Below the pieces are notes generated by a model. That model worked only from the letters and a program-made list of their open reading frames with translations. It did no database searches and was not told the DNA's origin. A stretch of DNA of 20,011 nucleotides. Source: Candidatus Jordarchaeia archaeon (GTDB lineage Archaea > Asgardarchaeota > Jordiarchaeia > Jordiarchaeales > Jordiarchaeaceae). Of this stretch, positions 274-19,399 are shown in pieces; position 1 is the stretch's first letter, and the number at the start of each line of letters is the position of its first letter. The stretch covers positions 1 to 20,011 of the forward strand of contig JAHQXB010000072.1 in NCBI GenBank assembly GCA_029856435.1, written 5' to 3'. The translations under genes were made by a program, and so were the position numbers.

Positions 274-523
274 TCTTCTTGCGAAGTGTAGATAAAGAAG
301 GGCGACAATTTTTCACCCAGTAGTCAATATGTAGGAGATATTTGCAAGAATATAAATTAAAGTTCTCGCAAAAGAGGAGTACATAGCGGCAGGTTTTGGA
401 ACAACATTTTTGAAAACTAGTGTTAAAGATCCTTTTTTACAATACAAATATTAAGAATGTAGATCAATGTCACATTATTACCACAAGGAGAGAAGGTTTG
501 TATCCATACACGAGGTTATGATA

Positions 524-1507
524 ATGAGTAGTGCAAAGGTAGGAGCTCTTTTGGGGAGTTTTCAAGACAAAAGGTACAAGGTGCGCCGCGAAGCTCTGTT
601 TGAAACAGCTAAATACGCTTCTAAGGGCGAGTTTAACAAGAATGTGCTAGTTTTTCTGACTAAGTTTCTAGGTGACGAGGACAAAGCCGCAAGAAGCACA
701 GCTGCTTGGACCCTGGGCAAGTACGCTCAAAATAAGCTTTATACTAAAAGCGCCATAGGTTACCTCACAAAAATGTTAAAGGAAGAGGGAGAAAGAGACA
801 TAATCACCAATGCAACCTACGCCCTAGCCAATTACGCTCAACTGGGACTCTTGGACAAAGGAGACTTGAGCAGAGAAGTTCTCATAAAACTTCTTAGTAA
901 CAAATTCGAAAAGGTCCGGGCAAACGCCGCAATCATAATCGGCTTCTTTGCGGAGGAAAAATTTTTGATTGAGGAAGCCTTCGACCAGCTTGTTAAACTG
1001 TTGGAGGATAGGGATGGAAGTACACGTAGAAATGCATCCTACGCAATCCTAAGCTACGCCGACCAAGACATGTTGGATGCAAAAATACTAGATAAGCTGG
1101 TTAGGGGACTCACAGACATGGAGGCAGGGGTGAGAATGAACTGCGCAATAGCCCTAGGAGTATACGCCCAAAAAGGAATCACAGACGAAAAAGCAGTGAA
1201 GCTACTAGCCCGACTACTCAAAGACAGAAACGAGCACGTGAGAGAAAACGCCGCAGAAGCACTAATAATCTACACCAACAAAAATCTCACAGACGAAACA
1301 GTCCTAGAAAACTCAGTAAAACTGTTAAAAGACAAAAACAAAAATACCCGCAAAGCCGCAGCCAGACTACTCGCCCTATACGCCAAAAGGAAACTGATGC
1401 ACAAAGAAGCTATAAAACCACTAAAAGACGCCCTAAAAGACGAAGAAATATCAAGAGACGCAGCACTAACCCTTAAACGCTACAAAGAGAGCGGCTTCCT
1501 CCAATAA
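524..1507 (+). CDS. HEAT/PBS-lyase-like repeat protein (about 9 repeats of ~38 aa)
   Basis: Recurring L..D....(V/T)R..A...L..YA units: DKRYKVR, DEDKAAR, NKFEKVR, DRDGSTR, DMEAGVR, DRNEHVR, DKNKNTR, DEEISR. The ORF opens at 467, but GAGGT (512-516) favours ATG 524 (or 518). Confidence 0.85.
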   Translation: MSSAKVGALLGSFQDKRYKVRREALFETAKYASKGEFNKNVLVFLTKFLGDEDKAARSTAAWTLGKYAQNKLYTKSAIGYLTKMLKEEGERDIITNATYALANYAQLGLLDKGDLSREVLIKLLSNKFEKVRANAAIIIGFFAEEKFLIEEAFDQLVKLLEDRDGSTRRNASYAILSYADQDMLDAKILDKLVRGLTDMEAGVRMNCAIALGVYAQKGITDEKAVKLLARLLKDRNEHVRENAAEALIIYTNKNLTDETVLENSVKLLKDKNKNTRKAAARLLALYAKRKLMHKEAIKPLKDALKDEEISRDAALTLKRYKESGFLQ

Positions 1508-9835: not shown

Positions 9836-10783
9836 TTAGAAGTTAACTTTGTCTATCCCTTTAAGTCCCAACATTTTTCTGGCCTCATCGGGGGTAGCGA
9901 TTTCTCTGCCCAAATCCTCAATGATTCTCCTCATTTTCTCAACTAGTGGTGCATTACCGGGCGAGAGTTCTCTATACCTAATAAATAGGTTGTCCTCTAA
10001 ACCCACCCGCACATGGCCTCCCATAACTGCAGCTACAGCGCCGAGGTGGAATTGTGCCGGGTAGCCGACTCCAATTACTGACCATGTGAAGTTGTTTAGG
10101 CCAAGTATTCTTTGGGCTTCAGTATACATGTGTATTAGTTCGTAGGGAGTGTTTCCAGTTCCTCCCAAAACTCCTAGAACGAATTGCATATGTGCAGGGA
10201 GTTTTACCCATCCGAACCTTATCATTGCCATAAGGTTCCAGAGGCCATTGGGACCATAGCACTCAAATTCGGGTTTAACATTATTTTCATACATTATGCT
10301 CATAAATCTCTCTACGTCTGCGAAGGTGTTCTTAAATACGTAATCCTTTGTAGACATTAGGATTGCGTACATTAGCTGGTCGTCTTTGAATCTCTCTGCG
10401 AGGGGGAACATGGAGAAGTTCATTGTTTCAGTGTTGCAGGAGCACATTTCGGGAGCGAACTCTGCAGCCACGGCGATTCTTTCATCGGCAGTCATGTCTT
10501 TGCCTCCGCCTGTTGTACAACAAACTATGAGGTCGTCAGCCTTTTGCTTAATTTTTTCTAGGGTTTCTCTCCAGACTTTTAAATCCGCTGTTGGAAACCC
10601 AGATTTGGGATCCCTCACATGAACGTGGACTATTGCTGCGCCTGCATCACGAGCCTTTTTGGCCTCGTCAGATATCTGATCTGGTGTTATGGGTATGTAT
10701 TTTGACTGGGCGGGGAAGGTTGCACCTCCGGTAAGTGCACATGTTATAATGCATTTCTCTCGCCAAGCAGTTAGTGCGGCCAT
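9836..10783 (-). CDS. Beta-keto acid cleavage enzyme (BKACE / DUF849, Kce family)
   Basis: IITCALTGG, AGAAIVHVHVRD (HxH Zn site), KPEFECY and GGHVRVGLEDN motifs. Confidence 0.92.
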   Translation of the reverse strand: MAALTAWREKCIITCALTGGATFPAQSKYIPITPDQISDEAKKARDAGAAIVHVHVRDPKSGFPTADLKVWRETLEKIKQKADDLIVCCTTGGGKDMTADERIAVAAEFAPEMCSCNTETMNFSMFPLAERFKDDQLMYAILMSTKDYVFKNTFADVERFMSIMYENNVKPEFECYGPNGLWNLMAMIRFGWVKLPAHMQFVLGVLGGTGNTPYELIHMYTEAQRILGLNNFTWSVIGVGYPAQFHLGAVAAVMGGHVRVGLEDNLFIRYRELSPGNAPLVEKMRRIIEDLGREIATPDEARKMLGLKGIDKVNF

Positions 10784-12858: not shown

Positions 12859-13908
12859 TTAACCTATCATGTGTTCGTAGGGTGTGTACCAGCAGTGTTT
12901 TGCTGATTGTGAAAAGTCGAATTTGGAGAGGGGTTTTATCATTTGGATGTCTTCGGCGACTTTGCTGAAGCCATTGGACTCGAGGAATTTGGATTCAAAA
13001 TCGCAATTACTACTTATGATGCATAGGGCCATGGAGCAGCCCTTCATTTTTGCTTCTTCCAATAGTTTGGATAGAATAATTTTAGCTGTGCTTGTATCCT
13101 TCGGCTTGGTGGTGAACATGTATTCTAGGAGTGCAGTTTTCACATTTGACCCGAAGGCAACAATTTCTCTTATCCTTAGAGTTCCTCCTCCCATAATTTC
13201 TTGCTTACTTCTGAATATCCATGTTTGGCTTGGAAAAGCTTTTTCCGATTCAAAAAGCCTCCAGTTAAGCACATCGATACCTAGGGGATAGAAGGCCTCC
13301 ATTCTAGTGTATGCTTTGTTAAACTTCTCCGCATACTCCTTCAGATTTTCTTTGGTTAGCAGCTTCAAGACTCCACCATTATGTTTCCTTTCACTTTCCT
13401 CTTCACCAACTAAAGGTTCATCTTGGCTGAGTGTTTTGATGTAAAAATGGAAGGTTTTGGCATCTACAAAACCGTACTTCAAATATATTTTGTGAGCATG
13501 GCCCTCAGGATCTGCATAGAGAGTGAGACCATCAAGGCTTTTTTGCTCTGCATACTTTATGGATTCTTCTAACAGTTTGCTTGCTAAACCTTTACCCCAC
13601 AATTCCGGCTGAGTAGACACATCGTCTATCACCCCCAAATTGAGGACTTCCCCTCCTAATTTCGCCTTTCTAAAAGTTTCTATCACAGAGGATACAATTC
13701 TGCCCCCTTTTTCCAAAATGAAAACTCCTTTCGGATCGAAACCCGGCATTTCAAGGTAACGCCAAACCCAAAAATCTAAGCTTCTGGGGGTAAATACACT
13801 ATTCCTTCCAAAAGCAGCGTTAAACAAACTGTTAATCTGAAACTCGTCTCCGGGCTGATAATTCCTCAACTTGTAATCCGAACTCGGAACCAAATCACCA
13901 ACCACCAA
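12859..13908 (-). CDS. GNAT N-acetyltransferase with tandem GNAT domains (Eis-like layout)
   Basis: LRNYQPGD N-terminus; IDDVSTQPELWGKGLASKLL acetyl-CoA motif; AHKIYLKYGF; a degenerate second domain ending FLESNGF. TTG start. Confidence 0.85.
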   Translation of the reverse strand: MVVGDLVPSSDYKLRNYQPGDEFQINSLFNAAFGRNSVFTPRSLDFWVWRYLEMPGFDPKGVFILEKGGRIVSSVIETFRKAKLGGEVLNLGVIDDVSTQPELWGKGLASKLLEESIKYAEQKSLDGLTLYADPEGHAHKIYLKYGFVDAKTFHFYIKTLSQDEPLVGEEESERKHNGGVLKLLTKENLKEYAEKFNKAYTRMEAFYPLGIDVLNWRLFESEKAFPSQTWIFRSKQEIMGGGTLRIREIVAFGSNVKTALLEYMFTTKPKDTSTAKIILSKLLEEAKMKGCSMALCIISSNCDFESKFLESNGFSKVAEDIQMIKPLSKFDFSQSAKHCWYTPYEHMIG

Positions 13909-14659: not shown

Positions 14660-16198
14660 CTAGTTTCTCACGAAAATTTTTACTGGTCCGAATTGTGCCA
14701 CCATCGTTGTGGAAACTGTAGGTGGTGGTGAAGTGAAGGGGGGGCCTATTACATAAATTGTTCCACTATTCGTATAGTAGTATTCCACAAATATTGAGAG
14801 TAGTAGATTCATAACTTCGAGCCACATACCATTTGTGGTGGGTCTTCCTGAGAAAGCGGTAATTGCAACAGAGTCTACACCCGCCCTACCGCCCAACACA
14901 CATATTGGTTGTTGGGGTAATGTGAACAGATCTATCCAGAGAGAGGCGAGATAGTAGAAAAAGGTGTTTCCAATAGGATCAATGTTTCCCGTTGGGTCAA
15001 AATTTATTGGTGTTAACCCCCTATACAGGGTTGGCCAAAATGCCAGATAACTGAAGGCGGAAGGCTCAAGATAAGGCGGAGTGTTGGGAGAATAAATGAA
15101 GACCTCTAAACTCTTCCCTACCGCTGGGGTTAGAGTTACCGCAGATAATCCCAAAATTAGGATTATTACTACTTGGGCTTTTCTCCATTTTCCGTGCTTG
15201 GACCCAATGAATCTTGACACGTTGACTCCCGTATAGAAAGATAACGGGATTAGTATGTATATCCAAAAACGGTGACCATACGAGATGAACATAGGAAGTA
15301 GAGCTAACGCAAATATGGCGAAAATGAAACTATTATTTTTATAGTATTTGAAGGAGTAAAGGAGACTAGGGACTCCCAAAACCCAAGCCAAGAGAGGAAT
15401 GTGGAGTCCCAGTGGCGTGCCCACTGACGAGAGCCAGTCAAAATTGGCTAATACGTGGATTAGCCAGGGAGCGTACACCAGCAGTGAAGCCCCCAAAACC
15501 TTTACAAAGAATGGAAGATAACCTTCATCCCTCCTCACAATGGAAAAGGCTCCCAAAACGATTATTATGAGTAGGGGCATGGATATGTGCATCCAAAGAG
15601 CCAGTGATAGGAGGGTAATCGAGGTTACCATTTTTTTCTGTGTAAAAGACCAAAAAAGAATAAGGGAAAATATCAAAACAAGGCTTACTGGAGAAGTCTC
15701 ATAACAATCTGTAAAAGTGGTAAGCACAGCAATGTAACAGGTAAAGGTGTAGAAGGCTGCTTTGAAACCAACAAATTTTCGGGTAGTCCACCACAAGCTA
15801 AGAACCAAAAGGGGATAAGTTAAAACCTTAACGAGCTTGACGGATAGAAGAACATTTCCCCCGCTAACTTTCATGGTTAAAGCCATCAAAACATGCAGTA
15901 ACGGCGGATAGAGATTTGGCCTACCAACCGGTGCGAATTCCCAGAAATCCCATGTGGGAACAAAGCCCAACCGGTAAATTTGTTGTGCTACCGACATATG
16001 GTAGAAATCATCATAAACTATGGGCGGACCAACTATCCACAGTCCAACCCCAAAAAAAACTATTATAGCAAAGACTAGAAAATCAAACAGATGTAAGGGT
16101 CCCAGGAAAACATTGTCCAGAATACTAGGCAATTCAGTAGGCAACTCTTTTTCAAATTTTACTCCGCATATAGTTACTCCGCGCATAGAACTGAACAT
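14660..16198 (-). CDS. GT-C fold membrane glycosyltransferase-like protein (STT3/AglB- or PMT/ArnT-like N-terminus)
   Basis: First loop YDDFYH...G.VP.WD.....P.GRPNLYPPL resembles the AglB/STT3 EL1; about 11-12 TM segments; small C-terminal soluble domain; no WWDYG. The true start may be a downstream TTG near 16144. Confidence 0.7.
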   Translation of the reverse strand: MFSSMRGVTICGVKFEKELPTELPSILDNVFLGPLHLFDFLVFAIIVFFGVGLWIVGPPIVYDDFYHMSVAQQIYRLGFVPTWDFWEFAPVGRPNLYPPLLHVLMALTMKVSGGNVLLSVKLVKVLTYPLLVLSLWWTTRKFVGFKAAFYTFTCYIAVLTTFTDCYETSPVSLVLIFSLILFWSFTQKKMVTSITLLSLALWMHISMPLLIIIVLGAFSIVRRDEGYLPFFVKVLGASLLVYAPWLIHVLANFDWLSSVGTPLGLHIPLLAWVLGVPSLLYSFKYYKNNSFIFAIFALALLPMFISYGHRFWIYILIPLSFYTGVNVSRFIGSKHGKWRKAQVVIILILGLSAVTLTPAVGKSLEVFIYSPNTPPYLEPSAFSYLAFWPTLYRGLTPINFDPTGNIDPIGNTFFYYLASLWIDLFTLPQQPICVLGGRAGVDSVAITAFSGRPTTNGMWLEVMNLLLSIFVEYYYTNSGTIYVIGPPFTSPPPTVSTTMVAQFGPVKIFVRN

Positions 16199-16298: not shown

Positions 16299-17069
16299 TC
16301 ACTTCATTTTTTTTATCTTATCTACCAGTTTGGGGAGAAACTCGCCTGCGCTGGCATAGACTCTCACATCTGCGATCTCCTCCATTTGAGTTTCACCCAA
16401 ATTTATTATTACTATTTTGGCCCCATGTCTTTTTGCAATGAGCGGGAACTGGTTGGCAGGAGACACACTAAGCGAGGAACCTATCACCAGCATGATGTCG
16501 CATTTCTGTGCCTGCTTAAGTGATTCCTGCATTTCCCGCTCAGGCATCGGGTCGCCAAAGTTTACCACTGAGGAAATAATTCTACCTGAACACTTGGGAC
16601 AAACTGGTTGATTGGGAACCGGCTGCTCAGTTCTGTAGCCCTTGCCAAATAATAGGTCATTCCACCCTATCTCCTTCTTCGAAAAACGCGCATCACAATT
16701 TATACACTTCATCAAAGTGTAGTTACCGTGAAGCTCGGAGAGAATGTTGGAGGGAATACCTGATTTTAAGTGGAGATTATCGACGTTTTGAGATATAAGA
16801 TATTTCAGTATACCCATACGGTAAAGCTCAACAAGAGCATAGTGACCCGGGTTAGGCTCAATCTGATCCATGGGCTTGGCTGGCAACTTGGGCTTCAAAC
16901 CCTTTGCTTTAAGTGTCCAAACCCCCTCCGGACCCCTATAGTCAGGAAGCCCAGACTCAGTCGAAATACCCGCCCCAGTAAACGCAACCAAATAGGAAGA
17001 ATTAATTATAAGTTCCGCAACCTTTTCCAAATCTTCCACGGTAAACGACAAAAACACTCCATCCTCCAA
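16299..17069 (-). CDS. sir2: NAD-dependent protein deacylase, Sir2 family (SIRT6/7-like N-terminal half)
   Basis: TGAGISTESGLPDYRG, SQNVDNLH, ELHGN, CxxC...CxxC, VVNFGD, GSSL and IINL motifs. The start could be GTG 17057, after GGAGG. Confidence 0.95.
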   Translation of the reverse strand: MEDGVFLSFTVEDLEKVAELIINSSYLVAFTGAGISTESGLPDYRGPEGVWTLKAKGLKPKLPAKPMDQIEPNPGHYALVELYRMGILKYLISQNVDNLHLKSGIPSNILSELHGNYTLMKCINCDARFSKKEIGWNDLLFGKGYRTEQPVPNQPVCPKCSGRIISSVVNFGDPMPEREMQESLKQAQKCDIMLVIGSSLSVSPANQFPLIAKRHGAKIVIINLGETQMEEIADVRVYASAGEFLPKLVDKIKKMK

Positions 17070-17354: not shown

Positions 17355-17984
17355 TTGGCTGAAAAAAGTTCCCCTCTCGAAATCATTGTTTTTTCGGATT
17401 ACATTTGCCCATTCTGCCTAGTAGGATACCTCACCCTAAAAAAACTTAAGGAAGAGTACGGTGACAGAATTAGCTTTACCTGGAAGCATTATCCCCTTTA
17501 TCCGGGAACAGTCAAACCCTACTTTTCCGACGAGTACATTCTAAACATTTTTGAGCGTGTAAAGAAACTGGTTGAAGAGAGAGGACTAGAATTTGAGATT
17601 GTTCCCCCCGAGCTTCCTTTTACGCTTCCTGATTCACTGAAGGCCTTTGAGGCCAGTGAGTGCGCCCGAGACCAAGGCAAATTTTGGGAGTTTCACGAAA
17701 AAGTTTTCGAGGCTCTATTCAGGAAACACAAAGACATTGGTAGCACAGAAATCTTGAAAGAAATAGCTGCCAGCATTGGAATAGATGCAGAAAAGTTCGA
17801 AAAATGTCTGAAAAACGGTTCCAAGAAGGATATTATAAAGCAACACTTCCGTGAAGGAAGAAACAGAGGAATCCCCGGAGTCCCCACCTTCATAATAAAG
17901 GGACACGCAGTCATTATTGGAGCCGAACCCTACTCACTCTTCAAAGAAGAAATTGACAGAGCCCTAAGCCTGCAAAACAAATGA
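17355..17984 (+). CDS. DsbA-family (FrnE-like) thioredoxin-fold oxidoreductase
   Basis: FSDYICPFC active site, helical insert (AFEASECARDQGKFWEFH) and cis-Pro loop GVPTF. No signal peptide is evident. Confidence 0.9.
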   Translation: MAEKSSPLEIIVFSDYICPFCLVGYLTLKKLKEEYGDRISFTWKHYPLYPGTVKPYFSDEYILNIFERVKKLVEERGLEFEIVPPELPFTLPDSLKAFEASECARDQGKFWEFHEKVFEALFRKHKDIGSTEILKEIAASIGIDAEKFEKCLKNGSKKDIIKQHFREGRNRGIPGVPTFIIKGHAVIIGAEPYSLFKEEIDRALSLQNK

Positions 17985-18091: not shown

Positions 18092-19399
18092 TTATTCTCC
18101 GTAGCGGCGCCCTAGGGTTTCCGATTTCTCTGCATACTTGTAGCCCCACCTGTCCAGAGCCTTTTTCAGTTCAGGATGAGTCTCTGCATATTTCTCTAGG
18201 GGGATTTTTATCATGGTAGCATCGATGGCCTGTCTCATTGCGGCAGCCCCAGCTCTAGTACCGTCTGGATGGCCATGTATACCACCTCCCGCATTGATCA
18301 CGAGATCCGTACCCAACAATTCAATATTTTTGGGAACTAACGCTGGGTGAATTCCCCCCGAAGCCACGGGCATTACTGGTTTAATTTTGCCCCATTCTCG
18401 AAGTAACACTTCCCCAGACTCCTTTGCTTCAACTACTTCCTCAGGAAGCCCCATTTTTCCAGCCGCTGTTCCACTGTGCAACTGATCCCCTCCCGCAAGT
18501 CTGGTTAATTTGGCTATCACCCTCATATGAACTCCGTGAAGAGGATTCCTAGTGAAGGCGGCGTGAAATGTTCTATGGCAGTGAATAGGAAGCTTCACTG
18601 ATGGATCTTCAGCCAAGTGTTGCAACGCACCTAGGCCAGAGAGCAATATGTCAAGCATAATCATGTTTGCTCCGTTCTCCACCGCATAATCTGCAAACTC
18701 CAACAACCTGTTTAGATTCCCAGTAATGTTTAACGCGTAAAAGACGGTTCTCCCAGTTTCCTCCTTTACCAAGTCTATTTTCTCCATAACCTTAGACAGC
18801 CTCTCCTCCAAGGGGCAGAAGCTCTGAGAAACTAGAGTTTCATCGTCCTTGATAAGATCCACTCCCCCCACTGCCGCTTCGTAGGCCACCTCGGCAGTCT
18901 GTGAGGGATTGAGTCCAACCTTGGGTTTAATTATGGTCCCCAAATGAGGCCTTCTATCCTTCTTGGTGCCCACAATTTCCCGTACGCCCTCTAAACCAAA
19001 TTTTGGTCCCGGAAAACAGGCTAGCACAGATTGGGGGAATTCGGCATCCAGCAGTCTCACATTTTTCAGAGCGGTGAGGCCAAACAGGTTACCCATAATC
19101 ATACTCATTATGTTGGGGATACCCCCATTTTCCAAGTCAAAGAGTTCAACTGGAAACGCTATCTTAACTAGGCCAACCCCCTTCTTCCCTTTCTCTTCGA
19201 ATTGAAAAGCCTTAGCAGCAAGTCTCCGCTGAATATCATTAGTCACAGTTCCAATGTCGGTCCAAGTTCCTATGGATTCTTCTGCTGCTATAGCCTCACC
19301 GGCACCCTCAAGGCTGCCATCAGTCTCCACATAGTAGGTGCAGATAATATGATTTTCAGGATCAATACCAGAAACATCAGAAAAAAATATTCCTTCCAA
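18092..19399 (-). CDS. rbcL: RuBisCO large subunit, Form III-like (catalytic residues retained)
   Basis: AEESIGTWT, GNLFG, IIKPKVG, DLIKDDE, HCHRTFH, DQLHSGTAAGKM, VASGG and AGGGIHGHP motifs. TTG start. Confidence 0.88.
   Translation of the reverse strand: MEGIFFSDVSGIDPENHIICTYYVETDGSLEGAGEAIAAEESIGTWTDIGTVTNDIQRRLAAKAFQFEEKGKKGVGLVKIAFPVELFDLENGGIPNIMSMIMGNLFGLTALKNVRLLDAEFPQSVLACFPGPKFGLEGVREIVGTKKDRRPHLGTIIKPKVGLNPSQTAEVAYEAAVGGVDLIKDDETLVSQSFCPLEERLSKVMEKIDLVKEETGRTVFYALNITGNLNRLLEFADYAVENGANMIMLDILLSGLGALQHLAEDPSVKLPIHCHRTFHAAFTRNPLHGVHMRVIAKLTRLAGGDQLHSGTAAGKMGLPEEVVEAKESGEVLLREWGKIKPVMPVASGGIHPALVPKNIELLGTDLVINAGGGIHGHPDGTRAGAAAMRQAIDATMIKIPLEKYAETHPELKKALDRWGYKYAEKSETLGRRYGE

What the first reader, a model, noticed from the sequence alone, without database searches (positions are those of the whole stretch)
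16299..17069. Archaeal sirtuin with eukaryotic class IV (SIRT6/SIRT7)-like architecture
Seen: PDYRGPEGVWT-LKAKGLKPKLPAKPMDQIEPNPGHYALVELYRMGILKYLISQNVDNLHLKSGIP..LSELHGN. Recalled human SIRT6: [71 protein letters not shown]. Only 23 residues separate GVWT from the conserved His (22 in SIRT6), so the ~40-residue helical module of typical archaeal/bacterial CobB/Sir2 is missing. The C-terminal half (VVNFGDPMP, GSSLSVSPA) looks prokaryotic rather than SIRT6-like (ILDWED). Established: class IV sirtuins were defined as eukaryotic chromatin deacylases. Inference: a prokaryotic sister or precursor of class IV that may act on archaeal chromatin proteins or long-chain acyl groups. A GNAT gene lies about 2.4 kb away.
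Basis: partly seen in the sequence, partly recalled or inferred. Interest (0 to 1): 0.72.

Follow-up and report, generated by a model that had tools for sequence, protein, structure and literature searches.

The report
SIRT6-like sirtuin of an Asgard archaeon
This is an intact gene of a Freyarchaeum-type Asgard archaeon for an NAD-dependent protein deacetylase built like human SIRT6; the resemblance is real, but the Asgard link was published in 2022 and its Lokiarchaeum counterpart was assayed on histone tails in 2026, so it is sound but not new.

Summary
Window 16299-17069 (-) is an intact 256-aa sirtuin (probably 250 aa from a TTG at 17051). All catalytic, NAD-binding and zinc residues are present, and the helical module is as short as in SIRT6.

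- **Within the genome:** it is the only one of six sirtuins with this short form.
- **Structure:** the AF2 model (pLDDT 91) fits human SIRT6 best (Z 29.1, rmsd 2.0 A) and Sir2-Af2 less well (Z 27.1, rmsd 3.7 A).
- **Trees:** three careful ML trees, two of them without the helical-module columns, join the prokaryotic short forms to a eukaryote clade. That clade holds a vertebrate SIRT6. Support is 100/96 to 100/99, and every full-module sirtuin sampled is excluded. An AU test did not reject a nearby alternative (p 0.20).
- **Distribution:** the family is common in Asgard archaea. A Chloroflexota/Desulfobacterota clade is nested inside it.
- **Prior work:** the gene is the reciprocal best hit (53% identity) of LoSIR2b of Lokiarchaeum ossiferum B35. 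A 2026 preprint reports LoSIR2b as an NAD-dependent histone-tail deacetylase. The Asgard/class IV kinship was published in 2022.
- **GNAT gene:** the neighbouring GNAT is not conserved even within the genus.

This scan has reached the same verdict before on other Asgard genomes. It is a new member of a known family.

The parts
16299..17069 (-). Sirtuin ORF (256 aa from the first in-frame start, stop codon included). It is the SIRT6-like short-module type and the ortholog of LoSIR2b.
17049..17051 (-). TTG (residue 7), the probable true start, giving a 250-aa protein. A GGAGG lies at 17063-17067 just upstream. A GTG at 17055-17057 is another candidate.
   Evidence: Sequence read. Homologs are mostly 250-252 aa, and their consensus N-terminus (M-x-F-x-x-x-D-x-x-x-V-A) lines up with residue 7. 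This is an inference.
16962..16976 (-). GAGIS NAD-binding (Rossmann) motif, residues 32-36.
   Evidence: Invariant in the alignment of 34 homologs.
16854..16916 (-). Shortened helical module / cofactor-loop region, residues 52-72. It is 16-28 residues shorter than in full-module sirtuins and the same length as in SIRT6.
   Evidence: In the model it is one short helix (50-55) followed by coil.
16779..16790 (-). QNVD motif, residues 94-97 (NAD ribose and nicotinamide pocket).
   Evidence: Q94, N95 and D97 are invariant. LoSIR2b has the same residue numbers.
16728..16730 (-). Catalytic His114 within ELHGN.
   Evidence: Invariant E112-N116. Aligned to the catalytic-His block (ELHGN) of human SIRT6.
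16590..16706 (-). Zinc module, C122-x2-C125 ... C157-x2-C160. The spacing from Cys2 to Cys3 is 32 residues, about 10 longer than in the full-module outgroup.
16455..16481 (-). GSSLSVSPA, residues 197-205 (second half of the NAD-binding Rossmann fold).
   Evidence: G197, S198, L200, V202, P204 and A205 are invariant.

Best explanation
The gene encodes an active NAD+-dependent protein lysine deacetylase (sirtuin). It belongs to the compact 'short helical module' clade that is widespread in Asgard archaea (the SIR2b clade of the 2026 preprint). This clade is the closest prokaryotic relative of eukaryotic class IV (SIRT6-type) sirtuins.

**Mechanism (inferred from the family):** NAD+ binds in the Rossmann fold (GAGIS, QNVD, GSSLS). 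The acyl-lysine enters the cleft next to the Cys4 zinc module. His114 acts as the general base, and nicotinamide and O-acyl-ADP-ribose are released.

**Substrate (inferred by orthology):** the most likely substrates are lysine-rich tails of chromatin proteins. Its Lokiarchaeum ortholog LoSIR2b was the one of three paralogs that efficiently deacetylated Lokiarchaeal histone-tail peptides.

**What is shown here:** the gene is intact, all catalytic residues are present, the architecture and fold are SIRT6-like, it sits within the Asgard clade, and it is orthologous to LoSIR2b.

**What is not shown:** activity of this particular protein and its substrates in this organism.
For: - **Gene and family:** intact ORF with a Pfam SIR2 match. 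The invariant catalytic, NAD-binding and zinc residues are all present.
- **Structure:** AF2 model pLDDT 91, pTM 0.88. Human SIRT6 is the best match: Foldseek TM 0.81 against 0.74 for Af2, and VIA-align Z 29.1 / rmsd 2.0 A / 235 residues against Af2 Z 27.1 / 3.7 A / 225 residues.
- **Within the genome:** it is the only short-module copy among six sirtuins.
- **Trees:** short forms plus the eukaryote clade are united at 100/99 (106 rows). With the helical-module columns removed, support is 100/98 (76 rows) and 100/96 (85 rows with bacteria). The eukaryote clade contains reedfish SIRT6.
- **Shared indel:** both groups share a rare deletion in the helical module, and these columns were left out of two of the trees.
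- **Orthology:** reciprocal best hit with LoSIR2b, 53.5% identity and 266 bits against 160 or fewer for the paralogs. The preprint's supplementary table gives the LoSIR2b sequence, which matches the ORF I took from genome G137 (6,035,313 bp, three sirtuins). The preprint reports NAD-dependent deacetylation of Loki histone tails by LoSIR2b.
- **Distribution:** 220 of 400 genomes of the phylum match at E <= 1e-40. Most of these score E < 1e-75.
Against: - No assay exists for this protein.
- This genome shows only one histone gene, with short Lys-rich extensions rather than a long tail, and five Alba genes. The substrate here may therefore differ from that in Lokiarchaeum.
- By sequence score Sir2-Af2 (class U) is marginally ahead of SIRT6, 175 against 169 bits.
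- The C-terminal half keeps the canonical CxxC and FGD motifs.
- An AU test did not reject a tree in which the prokaryotic short forms group with the nearest full-module bacterial sirtuins and exclude eukaryotes (delta lnL 14.3, p 0.20).
- Class I, class II and SIRT7 reference sequences could not be included in the trees.
Confidence: 0.8

Rival explanations
1. Convergence. The prokaryotic short forms are class U sirtuins that lost part of the helical module independently of eukaryotic class IV, so the SIRT6 likeness is architectural and not ancestral.
For: - The AU test does not reject a tree that holds the prokaryotic short forms together with the nearest full-module bacterial sirtuins and excludes eukaryotes (p 0.20).
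- The top sequence hit in the PDB is Sir2-Af2.
- The C-terminal half is prokaryote-like (CxxC, FGD).
- The 19-residue spacing from Asn to His is also found in full-module bacterial relatives, so it does not mark class IV.
Against: - Three ML trees unite the short forms with the eukaryote clade at 100/96 to 100/99, even with the indel columns removed.
- The deletion has the same position and length in both groups (40-43 residues).
- SIRT6 is the best structural match, with rmsd 2.0 A against 3.7 A for Af2.
- Long-branch attraction would pull the long eukaryote stem toward the long outgroup branches, not toward the short Asgard branches.
- An independent published tree also places an Asgard clade next to class IV.
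Confidence: 0.1
2. Reverse transfer. The short form arose in eukaryotes (class IV) and was later transferred into Asgard archaea and sediment bacteria, so it is not a precursor.
For: - The careful trees give reciprocal sister groups or an unresolved base, and the root is not inferred.
- Grau-Bove et al. state that their topology is compatible with transfers to or from Asgard archaea.
- Transfer of this gene does occur, since a bacterial clade is nested inside the Asgard diversity.
Against: - The gene is present in most Asgard families surveyed: 220 of 400 genomes, 46 of 85 genera.
- Its named homologs span about ten Asgard lineages.
- The prokaryotic forms keep the ancestral CxxC and FGD/FND motifs and lack eukaryotic extensions.
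- Asgard branches are short, whereas the eukaryote stem is long (0.78-1.19).
Confidence: 0.1
3. Different job. In this organism the enzyme is mainly a defatty-acylase or mono-ADP-ribosyltransferase, or it deacylates Alba or metabolic enzymes rather than histones.
For: - SIRT6 is a better defatty-acylase than deacetylase in vitro (stated in PMC10652111).
- JGI names some orthologs 'mono-ADP-ribosyltransferase sirtuin 6'.
- The genome has one short-tailed histone but five Alba genes.
- With six sirtuins in the genome, division of labour is likely.
Against: - The only assayed ortholog is a histone-tail deacetylase.
- The JGI name is an automatic transfer from SIRT6.
- No conserved gene neighbour points to a metabolic partner.
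Confidence: 0.3

Closest known systems
LoSIR2b (GNAMCCOK_01652) of Candidatus Lokiarchaeum ossiferum B35, in the Asgard 'SIR2b' clade of bioRxiv 10.64898/2026.07.02.735847
   Same: - Reciprocal best hit at 53.5% identity.
- Same length class.
- Same short helical module (spacing 42).
- Identical numbering of Q94-D97 and E112-G115.
- Same clade of Asgard short forms.
- Each is the single short-module copy among several sirtuin paralogs in its genome.
   Different: - It comes from a different Asgard lineage (the Freyarchaeum genus rather than Lokiarchaeum).
- Identity is only 53%.
- This genome has six sirtuins rather than three.
- Only one short-tailed histone was found, so the natural substrate may differ.
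- This protein has not been assayed.
Human SIRT6 (class IV sirtuin; PDB 3K35, 3PKI, 8G57)
   Same: - Short helical module of the same length, with a near gap-free alignment over residues 16-251 (169 bits).
- Best structural match: Z 29.1, rmsd 2.0 A over 235 residues.
- It groups with the clade containing vertebrate SIRT6 in ML trees.
- The total length of the zinc module is similar.
   Different: - Only 34-40% identity.
- A canonical CxxC second zinc pair, where a vertebrate SIRT6 has Cx10C.
- FGD instead of WED.
- No N- or C-terminal extensions.
- It falls outside the eukaryote clade, which is monophyletic at 100/100.
Sir2-Af2 of Archaeoglobus fulgidus (class U; PDB 1MA3, 1S7G)
   Same: - Highest sequence score in the PDB (175 bits).
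- Archaeal, compact and single-domain.
- Very similar C-terminal Rossmann half, including the FGE/FGD and GSSL motifs.
   Different: - Af2 has the full helical module, so about 21 gap positions are needed.
- Af2 has a shorter zinc module.
- The structural fit is worse (rmsd 3.7-4.2 A).
- Full-module sirtuins lie on the other side of the 100/96-99 branch.
Asgard sirtuin clade sister to SIRT7 in Grau-Bove et al. 2022 (bioRxiv 10.1101/2021.11.30.470311)
   Same: It reports Heimdall- and Lokiarchaeota sirtuins as the closest prokaryotic relatives of a class IV sirtuin.
   Different: That paper places the Asgard clade next to SIRT7, with SIRT6 among other eukaryotic sequences. My trees hold SIRT6-type sequences only, so I could not test SIRT6 against SIRT7. 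I could not check that its clade is the same set of proteins.

Membership tests
Sir2/sirtuin superfamily (Pfam PF02146) | Score above the curated cut-off, and the catalytic core present: GAGxS, QNxD, catalytic His, Cys4 zinc site. | tested here: met
   113.7 bits against a cut-off of 24. G32-S36, Q94/N95/D97, H114 and C122/C125/C157/C160 are all present and invariant among homologs.
Asgard SIR2b clade (LoSIR2b orthologs) | Orthology to LoSIR2b: reciprocal best hit, and the same clade rather than the SIR2a/c paralogs. | tested here: met
   Reciprocal best hit at 53.5% identity, 266 bits against 160 or fewer. The LoSIR2b sequence in the preprint's supplement matches the ORF from G137. The window protein lies inside starred Asgard-only clades.
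Asgard SIR2b clade (LoSIR2b orthologs) | NAD-dependent deacetylation of histone-tail peptides. | not testable with these tools
   Reported for LoSIR2b only. It needs a bench assay of this protein.
Class IV sirtuins (SIRT6/SIRT7; Frye 2000) | Phylogenetic grouping with SIRT6/7 to the exclusion of classes I, II, III and U. | tested here: inconclusive
   ML trees unite the prokaryotic short forms with the clade holding vertebrate SIRT6 at 100/96 to 100/99. Three things keep this open. The protein sits outside the 100/100 eukaryote clade. An AU test leaves an alternative open (p 0.20).
Class IV sirtuins (SIRT6/SIRT7; Frye 2000) | Truncated helical module / cofactor-binding loop. | tested here: met
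   Spacing is 42 residues, against 41 in reedfish SIRT6 and 57-70 in full-module sirtuins. The alignment to human SIRT6 has one gap residue here. The model shows one short helix in this region.
Class IV sirtuins (SIRT6/SIRT7; Frye 2000) | SIRT6-type details: a split second zinc pair (Cx10C), a WED motif in place of FGE, and N- and C-terminal extensions. | tested here: not met
   CPKC at 157-160, FGD, and a single-domain protein of 250-256 aa.
CobB equivalog (NCBIfam NF040867 prot_deacyl_CobB) | Score above the curated equivalog cut-off. | tested here: not met
   223.3 bits against a cut-off of 320. All other NCBIfam sirtuin models also fall below their cut-offs.

The most novel reading that the evidence does not exclude
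The short-module sirtuin arose once in the Asgard lineage, passed vertically into the first eukaryotes as the ancestor of SIRT6/7, and spread sideways to sediment Chloroflexota and Desulfobacterota. In Freyarchaeum-type archaea, which show one short-tailed histone and five Alba genes, it would act on Alba or another non-histone chromatin protein, or use a SIRT6-like defatty-acylase activity, rather than on long histone tails.
Probability: 0.2. Interest if true: 0.45.

Novelty: new member of a known kind. Interest (0 to 1): 0.25.

Why it matters
Class IV sirtuins (SIRT6/7) are central chromatin and genome-stability enzymes of eukaryotes. An Asgard relative bears on how histone-based regulation arose before eukaryotes. 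That point has already been made in print (2022), and an ortholog has been tested at the bench (2026 preprint).

What this copy adds is modest:
- It extends the family to the Freyarchaeum genus.
- It shows the short form as one of six sirtuin paralogs in one genome.
- Together with the bacterial clade nested among Asgard sequences, it cautions that the direction of inheritance (Asgard to eukaryote) is likely but not proven.

Tried and rejected
1. **Asn-to-His spacing as a second class IV marker.** I rejected the 19-residue spacing between the Asn of QNxD and the catalytic His. Nine of 22 full-module outgroup sequences have it, and so does nearly every full-module bacterial relative fetched.
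2. **GNAT linkage.** The GNAT gene (12859-13908) is missing from the otherwise syntenic Freyarchaeum deiterrae locus. None of the window's neighbours recur near the ortholog in 12 other Asgard loci.
3. **Eukaryotes nested inside Asgard diversity.** A FastTree overview placed them there. The careful trees give an unresolved base or reciprocal sister groups, so I do not claim it.
4. **'Bacteria, commonest Myxococcota'.** The ESM Atlas gave this label for the nearest cluster. I found real bacterial short forms, but in Chloroflexota/Dehalococcoidia and Desulfobacterota. None of the 80 loci kept by the genome scan is labelled Myxococcota.
5. **Long-contig 'bacterial hits'.** The hits on closed Desulfobacterales chromosomes and on an alphaproteobacterial (Parvibaculaceae) chromosome turned out to be full-module sirtuins (spacing 58-60), not the short form.
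6. **Reference sequences.** SIRT7 and class I/II sequences could not be obtained by reference, so they are absent from the trees.
7. **Divergent P0149/P0204 group.** Naming it through a second homolog search gave only unnamed metagenome proteins.
8. **CobB equivalog models.** All score below their cut-offs.

Full report
**The gene.** Window 16299-17069 (minus strand) is an open frame of 256 codons that starts at a TTG. There is no in-frame ATG upstream of the Rossmann motif. Homologs are mostly 250-252 aa, and their consensus N-terminus lines up with residue 7. That residue is a TTG at 17051, preceded by GGAGG at 17063-17067. The real protein is therefore probably 250 aa, which is an inference. 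Residue numbers below count from 17069.

**Family and catalytic residues.** Pfam SIR2 matches at E 1.3e-32, but in two stretches, with profile positions 24-56 unmatched. All NCBIfam sirtuin and CobB models score below their curated cut-offs. In an alignment with 33 homologs the following are invariant:
- GAGxS (32-36)
- Q94, N95 and D97
- ELHGN, with the catalytic H114
- four zinc cysteines (122, 125, 157, 160)
- the GSSL block

The enzyme is predicted to be active.

**The architecture claim.** phmmer against PDB sequences gives Sir2-Af2 175 bits and human SIRT6 169 bits. SIRT7 gets 114 bits, and class I and class III sirtuins get 80 or fewer. The SIRT6 alignment runs over residues 16-251 with a single gap residue in the N-terminal half, whereas Af2 needs about 21 gap positions in the helical module.

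The spacing from G-x-W to QNxD is as follows:

| Group | Spacing (residues) |
|---|---|
| This protein | 42 |
| Prokaryotic short forms (119 of 129) | 41-42 |
| Eukaryote clade (most members) | 40-43 |
| Full-module sirtuins (21) | 57-70 |

The module is thus shortened by about 16-28 residues, not wholly absent.

The same genome (3.54 Mb, 181 contigs, 97.8% complete) has six sirtuins. The other five have the full module, and one of them carries a class III-like Y-x-x-R signature.

The AF2 model is confident (pLDDT 91.1, pTM 0.88). Its best PDB matches are human SIRT6 chains:
- Foldseek TM 0.80-0.81, against 0.74 for Af2.
- VIA-align Z 29.1, rmsd 2.0 A over 235 residues. Af2 gives Z 27.1 and 3.7 A over 225 residues.

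The C-terminal half keeps the canonical CxxC and FGD motifs where a vertebrate SIRT6 has Cx10C and WED.

**Who has it.**
- The closest proteins (55-97% identity) come from Jord-, Frey-, Loki-, Thor-, Hod-, Heimdall-, Odin-, Hermod-, Hel-, Kari- and Borrarchaeal MAGs. JGI automatically named some of them 'mono-ADP-ribosyltransferase sirtuin 6'.
- In 400 genomes of the phylum, 220 match at E <= 1e-40 (46 of 85 genera). Most of these score E < 1e-75 with 48-98% identity.
- The window's GTDB genus includes a closed 3,576,204-bp chromosome titled Candidatus Freyarchaeota (CP147778).
- That locus is syntenic with the window. RuBisCO, DsbA, the sirtuin, a 512-aa membrane protein, UDG, an AP endonuclease-type TIM barrel and BKACE match at 63-84% identity. 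The contig is therefore a genuine Asgard contig, not a eukaryotic one or a contaminant.

**Phylogeny.** An exhaustive search of 50%-identity representatives returned the Asgard proteins first. After them came mainly long single-stretch proteins that proved to be eukaryotic: Diversispora, Synchytrium, Pelomyxa, Mantamonas, Pyxidicula, MMETSP transcriptomes, and reedfish SIRT6.

I built three careful IQ-TREE trees (LG+C20+F+G4 by PMSF). The 'short forms + eukaryotes' column gives support for the branch that joins them and excludes full-module sirtuins.

| Tree | Rows | Helical-module columns | Short forms + eukaryotes | Other results |
|---|---|---|---|---|
| 1 | 106 | kept | 100/99 | 21 full-module sirtuins excluded, including the five same-genome paralogs; base of the short-form group unresolved |
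| 2 | 76 | removed | 100/98 | Asgard short forms 97/88; eukaryotes 100/100 |
| 3 | 85 (with bacteria) | removed | 100/96 | eukaryotes 100/100, sister to a prokaryotic short-form group at 91/94 |

The window protein sits with Jordarchaeum and Freyarchaeum sequences in starred Asgard-only clades in all three trees.

Limits of this analysis:
- An AU test did not reject a tree that holds the prokaryotic short forms together with the nearest full-module bacterial sirtuins and leaves eukaryotes outside (delta lnL 14.3, p 0.20).
- The group for that AU test was chosen after I had seen the tree.
- The root is not inferred.
- Class I, class II and SIRT7 sequences could not be added.

The shared deletion is independent of trees 2 and 3 and favours a single origin. 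The kinship with class IV is therefore well supported but not proven beyond a nearby alternative, and 'precursor' is not shown.

**Bacteria.** Prompted by an Atlas label and by earlier notes of this scan, I scanned species-representative genomes.
- Twenty-six loci from Chloroflexota/Dehalococcoidia and Desulfobacterota MAGs encode 232-248-aa proteins. They are 43-48% identical to the window protein, and most have a spacing of 40-42.
- Their contigs reach 74, 88 and 637 kb.
- The 15 of these loci that were put into tree 3 form one 100/99 clade nested among Hel- and Promethearchaeal sequences. This suggests transfer from Asgard archaea to co-resident sediment bacteria.
- The hits at 37-41% identity, including those on closed Desulfobacterales chromosomes, are full-module sirtuins.

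**What is already known.**
- Grau-Bove et al. (bioRxiv 10.1101/2021.11.30.470311) report a well-supported sister relationship between SIRT7 and a clade of Heimdall- and Lokiarchaeota sirtuins.
- The preprint 10.64898/2026.07.02.735847 describes three sirtuins of Lokiarchaeum ossiferum B35. [quoted passage not shown] Loki and Hod sirtuins fused to the yeast targeting domain restore silencing. The authors compare the LoSIR2b model with the SIRT6-nucleosome structure.
- Genome G137 of the survey is one contig of 6,035,313 bp with exactly three sirtuins. One paralog gives N106/H123, the LoSIR2a mutant positions.
- The short-module copy in G137 gives Q94-D97 and E112-G115, the LoSIR2b numbering.
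- The preprint's supplementary table prints both sequences, and they match these ORFs.
- LoSIR2b and the window protein are reciprocal best hits: 53.5% identity, 266 bits, against 160 or fewer for any paralog.

**Function here.** By orthology the protein is most likely an NAD-dependent lysine deacetylase acting on chromatin proteins. This genome, however, shows only one histone gene, with short Lys-rich ends (N-terminus MPRKKSET), and five Alba genes. The natural substrate may differ from the long-tailed Loki histones. Long-chain deacylase or ADP-ribosyltransferase activity is untested.

The GNAT gene 2.39 kb away is absent from the syntenic Freyarchaeum locus. No neighbour is conserved in 12 other Asgard loci, so I treat the GNAT proximity as coincidental.

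**Verdict.** Several earlier follow-ups of this scan reached the same verdict on other Asgard genomes. I found the papers and identified LoSIR2b before reading those notes, and I tested their bacterial claim myself. This is a new member of a known family, of low to moderate interest.

Noticed in passing
own genome G000: C49:13388-13918, C27:8825-9358, C147:2744-3274, C109:23478-24026, C59:4496-5011 (loci L001-L005): There are five further sirtuin paralogs, all with the full helical module. The C59 copy has a class III-like W-E-x-Y-x-x-R signature. Six sirtuins in a 3.5-Mb archaeal genome is a notable expansion.
   Followed up: partly
L047-L071 and L106 (Chloroflexota/Dehalococcoidia and Desulfobacterota MAG contigs): These bacteria carry short-module sirtuins of 232-248 aa. 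The 15 included in the tree form one 100/99 clade nested among Hel- and Promethearchaeal sequences, which looks like transfer from Asgard archaea to sediment bacteria.
   Followed up: partly
L033, L034, L038, L042, L046: Five short contigs (2.4-26 kb) are binned as Proteobacteria, Enterobacterales, Actinomycetota, Pyrinomonadaceae and Rubrobacter. They carry short forms 48-54% identical to the window protein and fall among Asgard sequences. L038, L042 and L046 form their own 100/100 clade. They may be mis-binned Asgard contigs or further transfers.
   Followed up: no
proteins P0125 (408 aa), P0140 (481 aa), P0145 (537 aa): These members of the short-module clade have N-terminal extensions of 165-300 residues. 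JGI names one of them 'SIR2 ... / vacuolar-type H+-ATPase subunit H'. I did not examine the extra domains.
   Followed up: no
protein P0130 (273 aa, one 1.36-kb Logan contig): This sequence sits inside the short-module clade but has a spacing of 64. It may be a re-insertion, or a chimeric or mis-assembled contig.
   Followed up: no
window 14660-16198 (-): A 512-aa multi-pass membrane protein with no Pfam match lies directly downstream of the sirtuin. The syntenic Freyarchaeum locus L015 has two tandem copies (63% and 50% identity).
   Followed up: no
L015:3825-4450 (Freyarchaeum deiterrae ortholog of the window's DsbA gene, 17355-17984): The DsbA-like gene matches in two overlapping pieces in different frames in the closed Freyarchaeum chromosome. 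This suggests a frameshift there. The window's copy is intact.
   Followed up: no
own genome G000:C3:51886-52131 and the five Alba loci: Only one histone-fold gene was found (80 aa, with short Lys-rich N- and C-terminal extensions), against five Alba paralogs. This is unlike the multi-histone Loki and Hod genomes described in the 2026 preprint.
   Followed up: partly
window 18092-19399 (-), 467-1507 (+), 9836-10783 (-): The window also holds a RuBisCO large-subunit homolog, a HEAT-repeat protein and a BKACE-family enzyme. I read them only by Pfam.
   Followed up: no
G306, G307, G308 matches: The orthologs in one Asgard family are flagged with one to three in-frame stops inside the match, while their open frames are 248-251 aa. 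This is probably the alignment running past the gene ends. I did not check.
   Followed up: no
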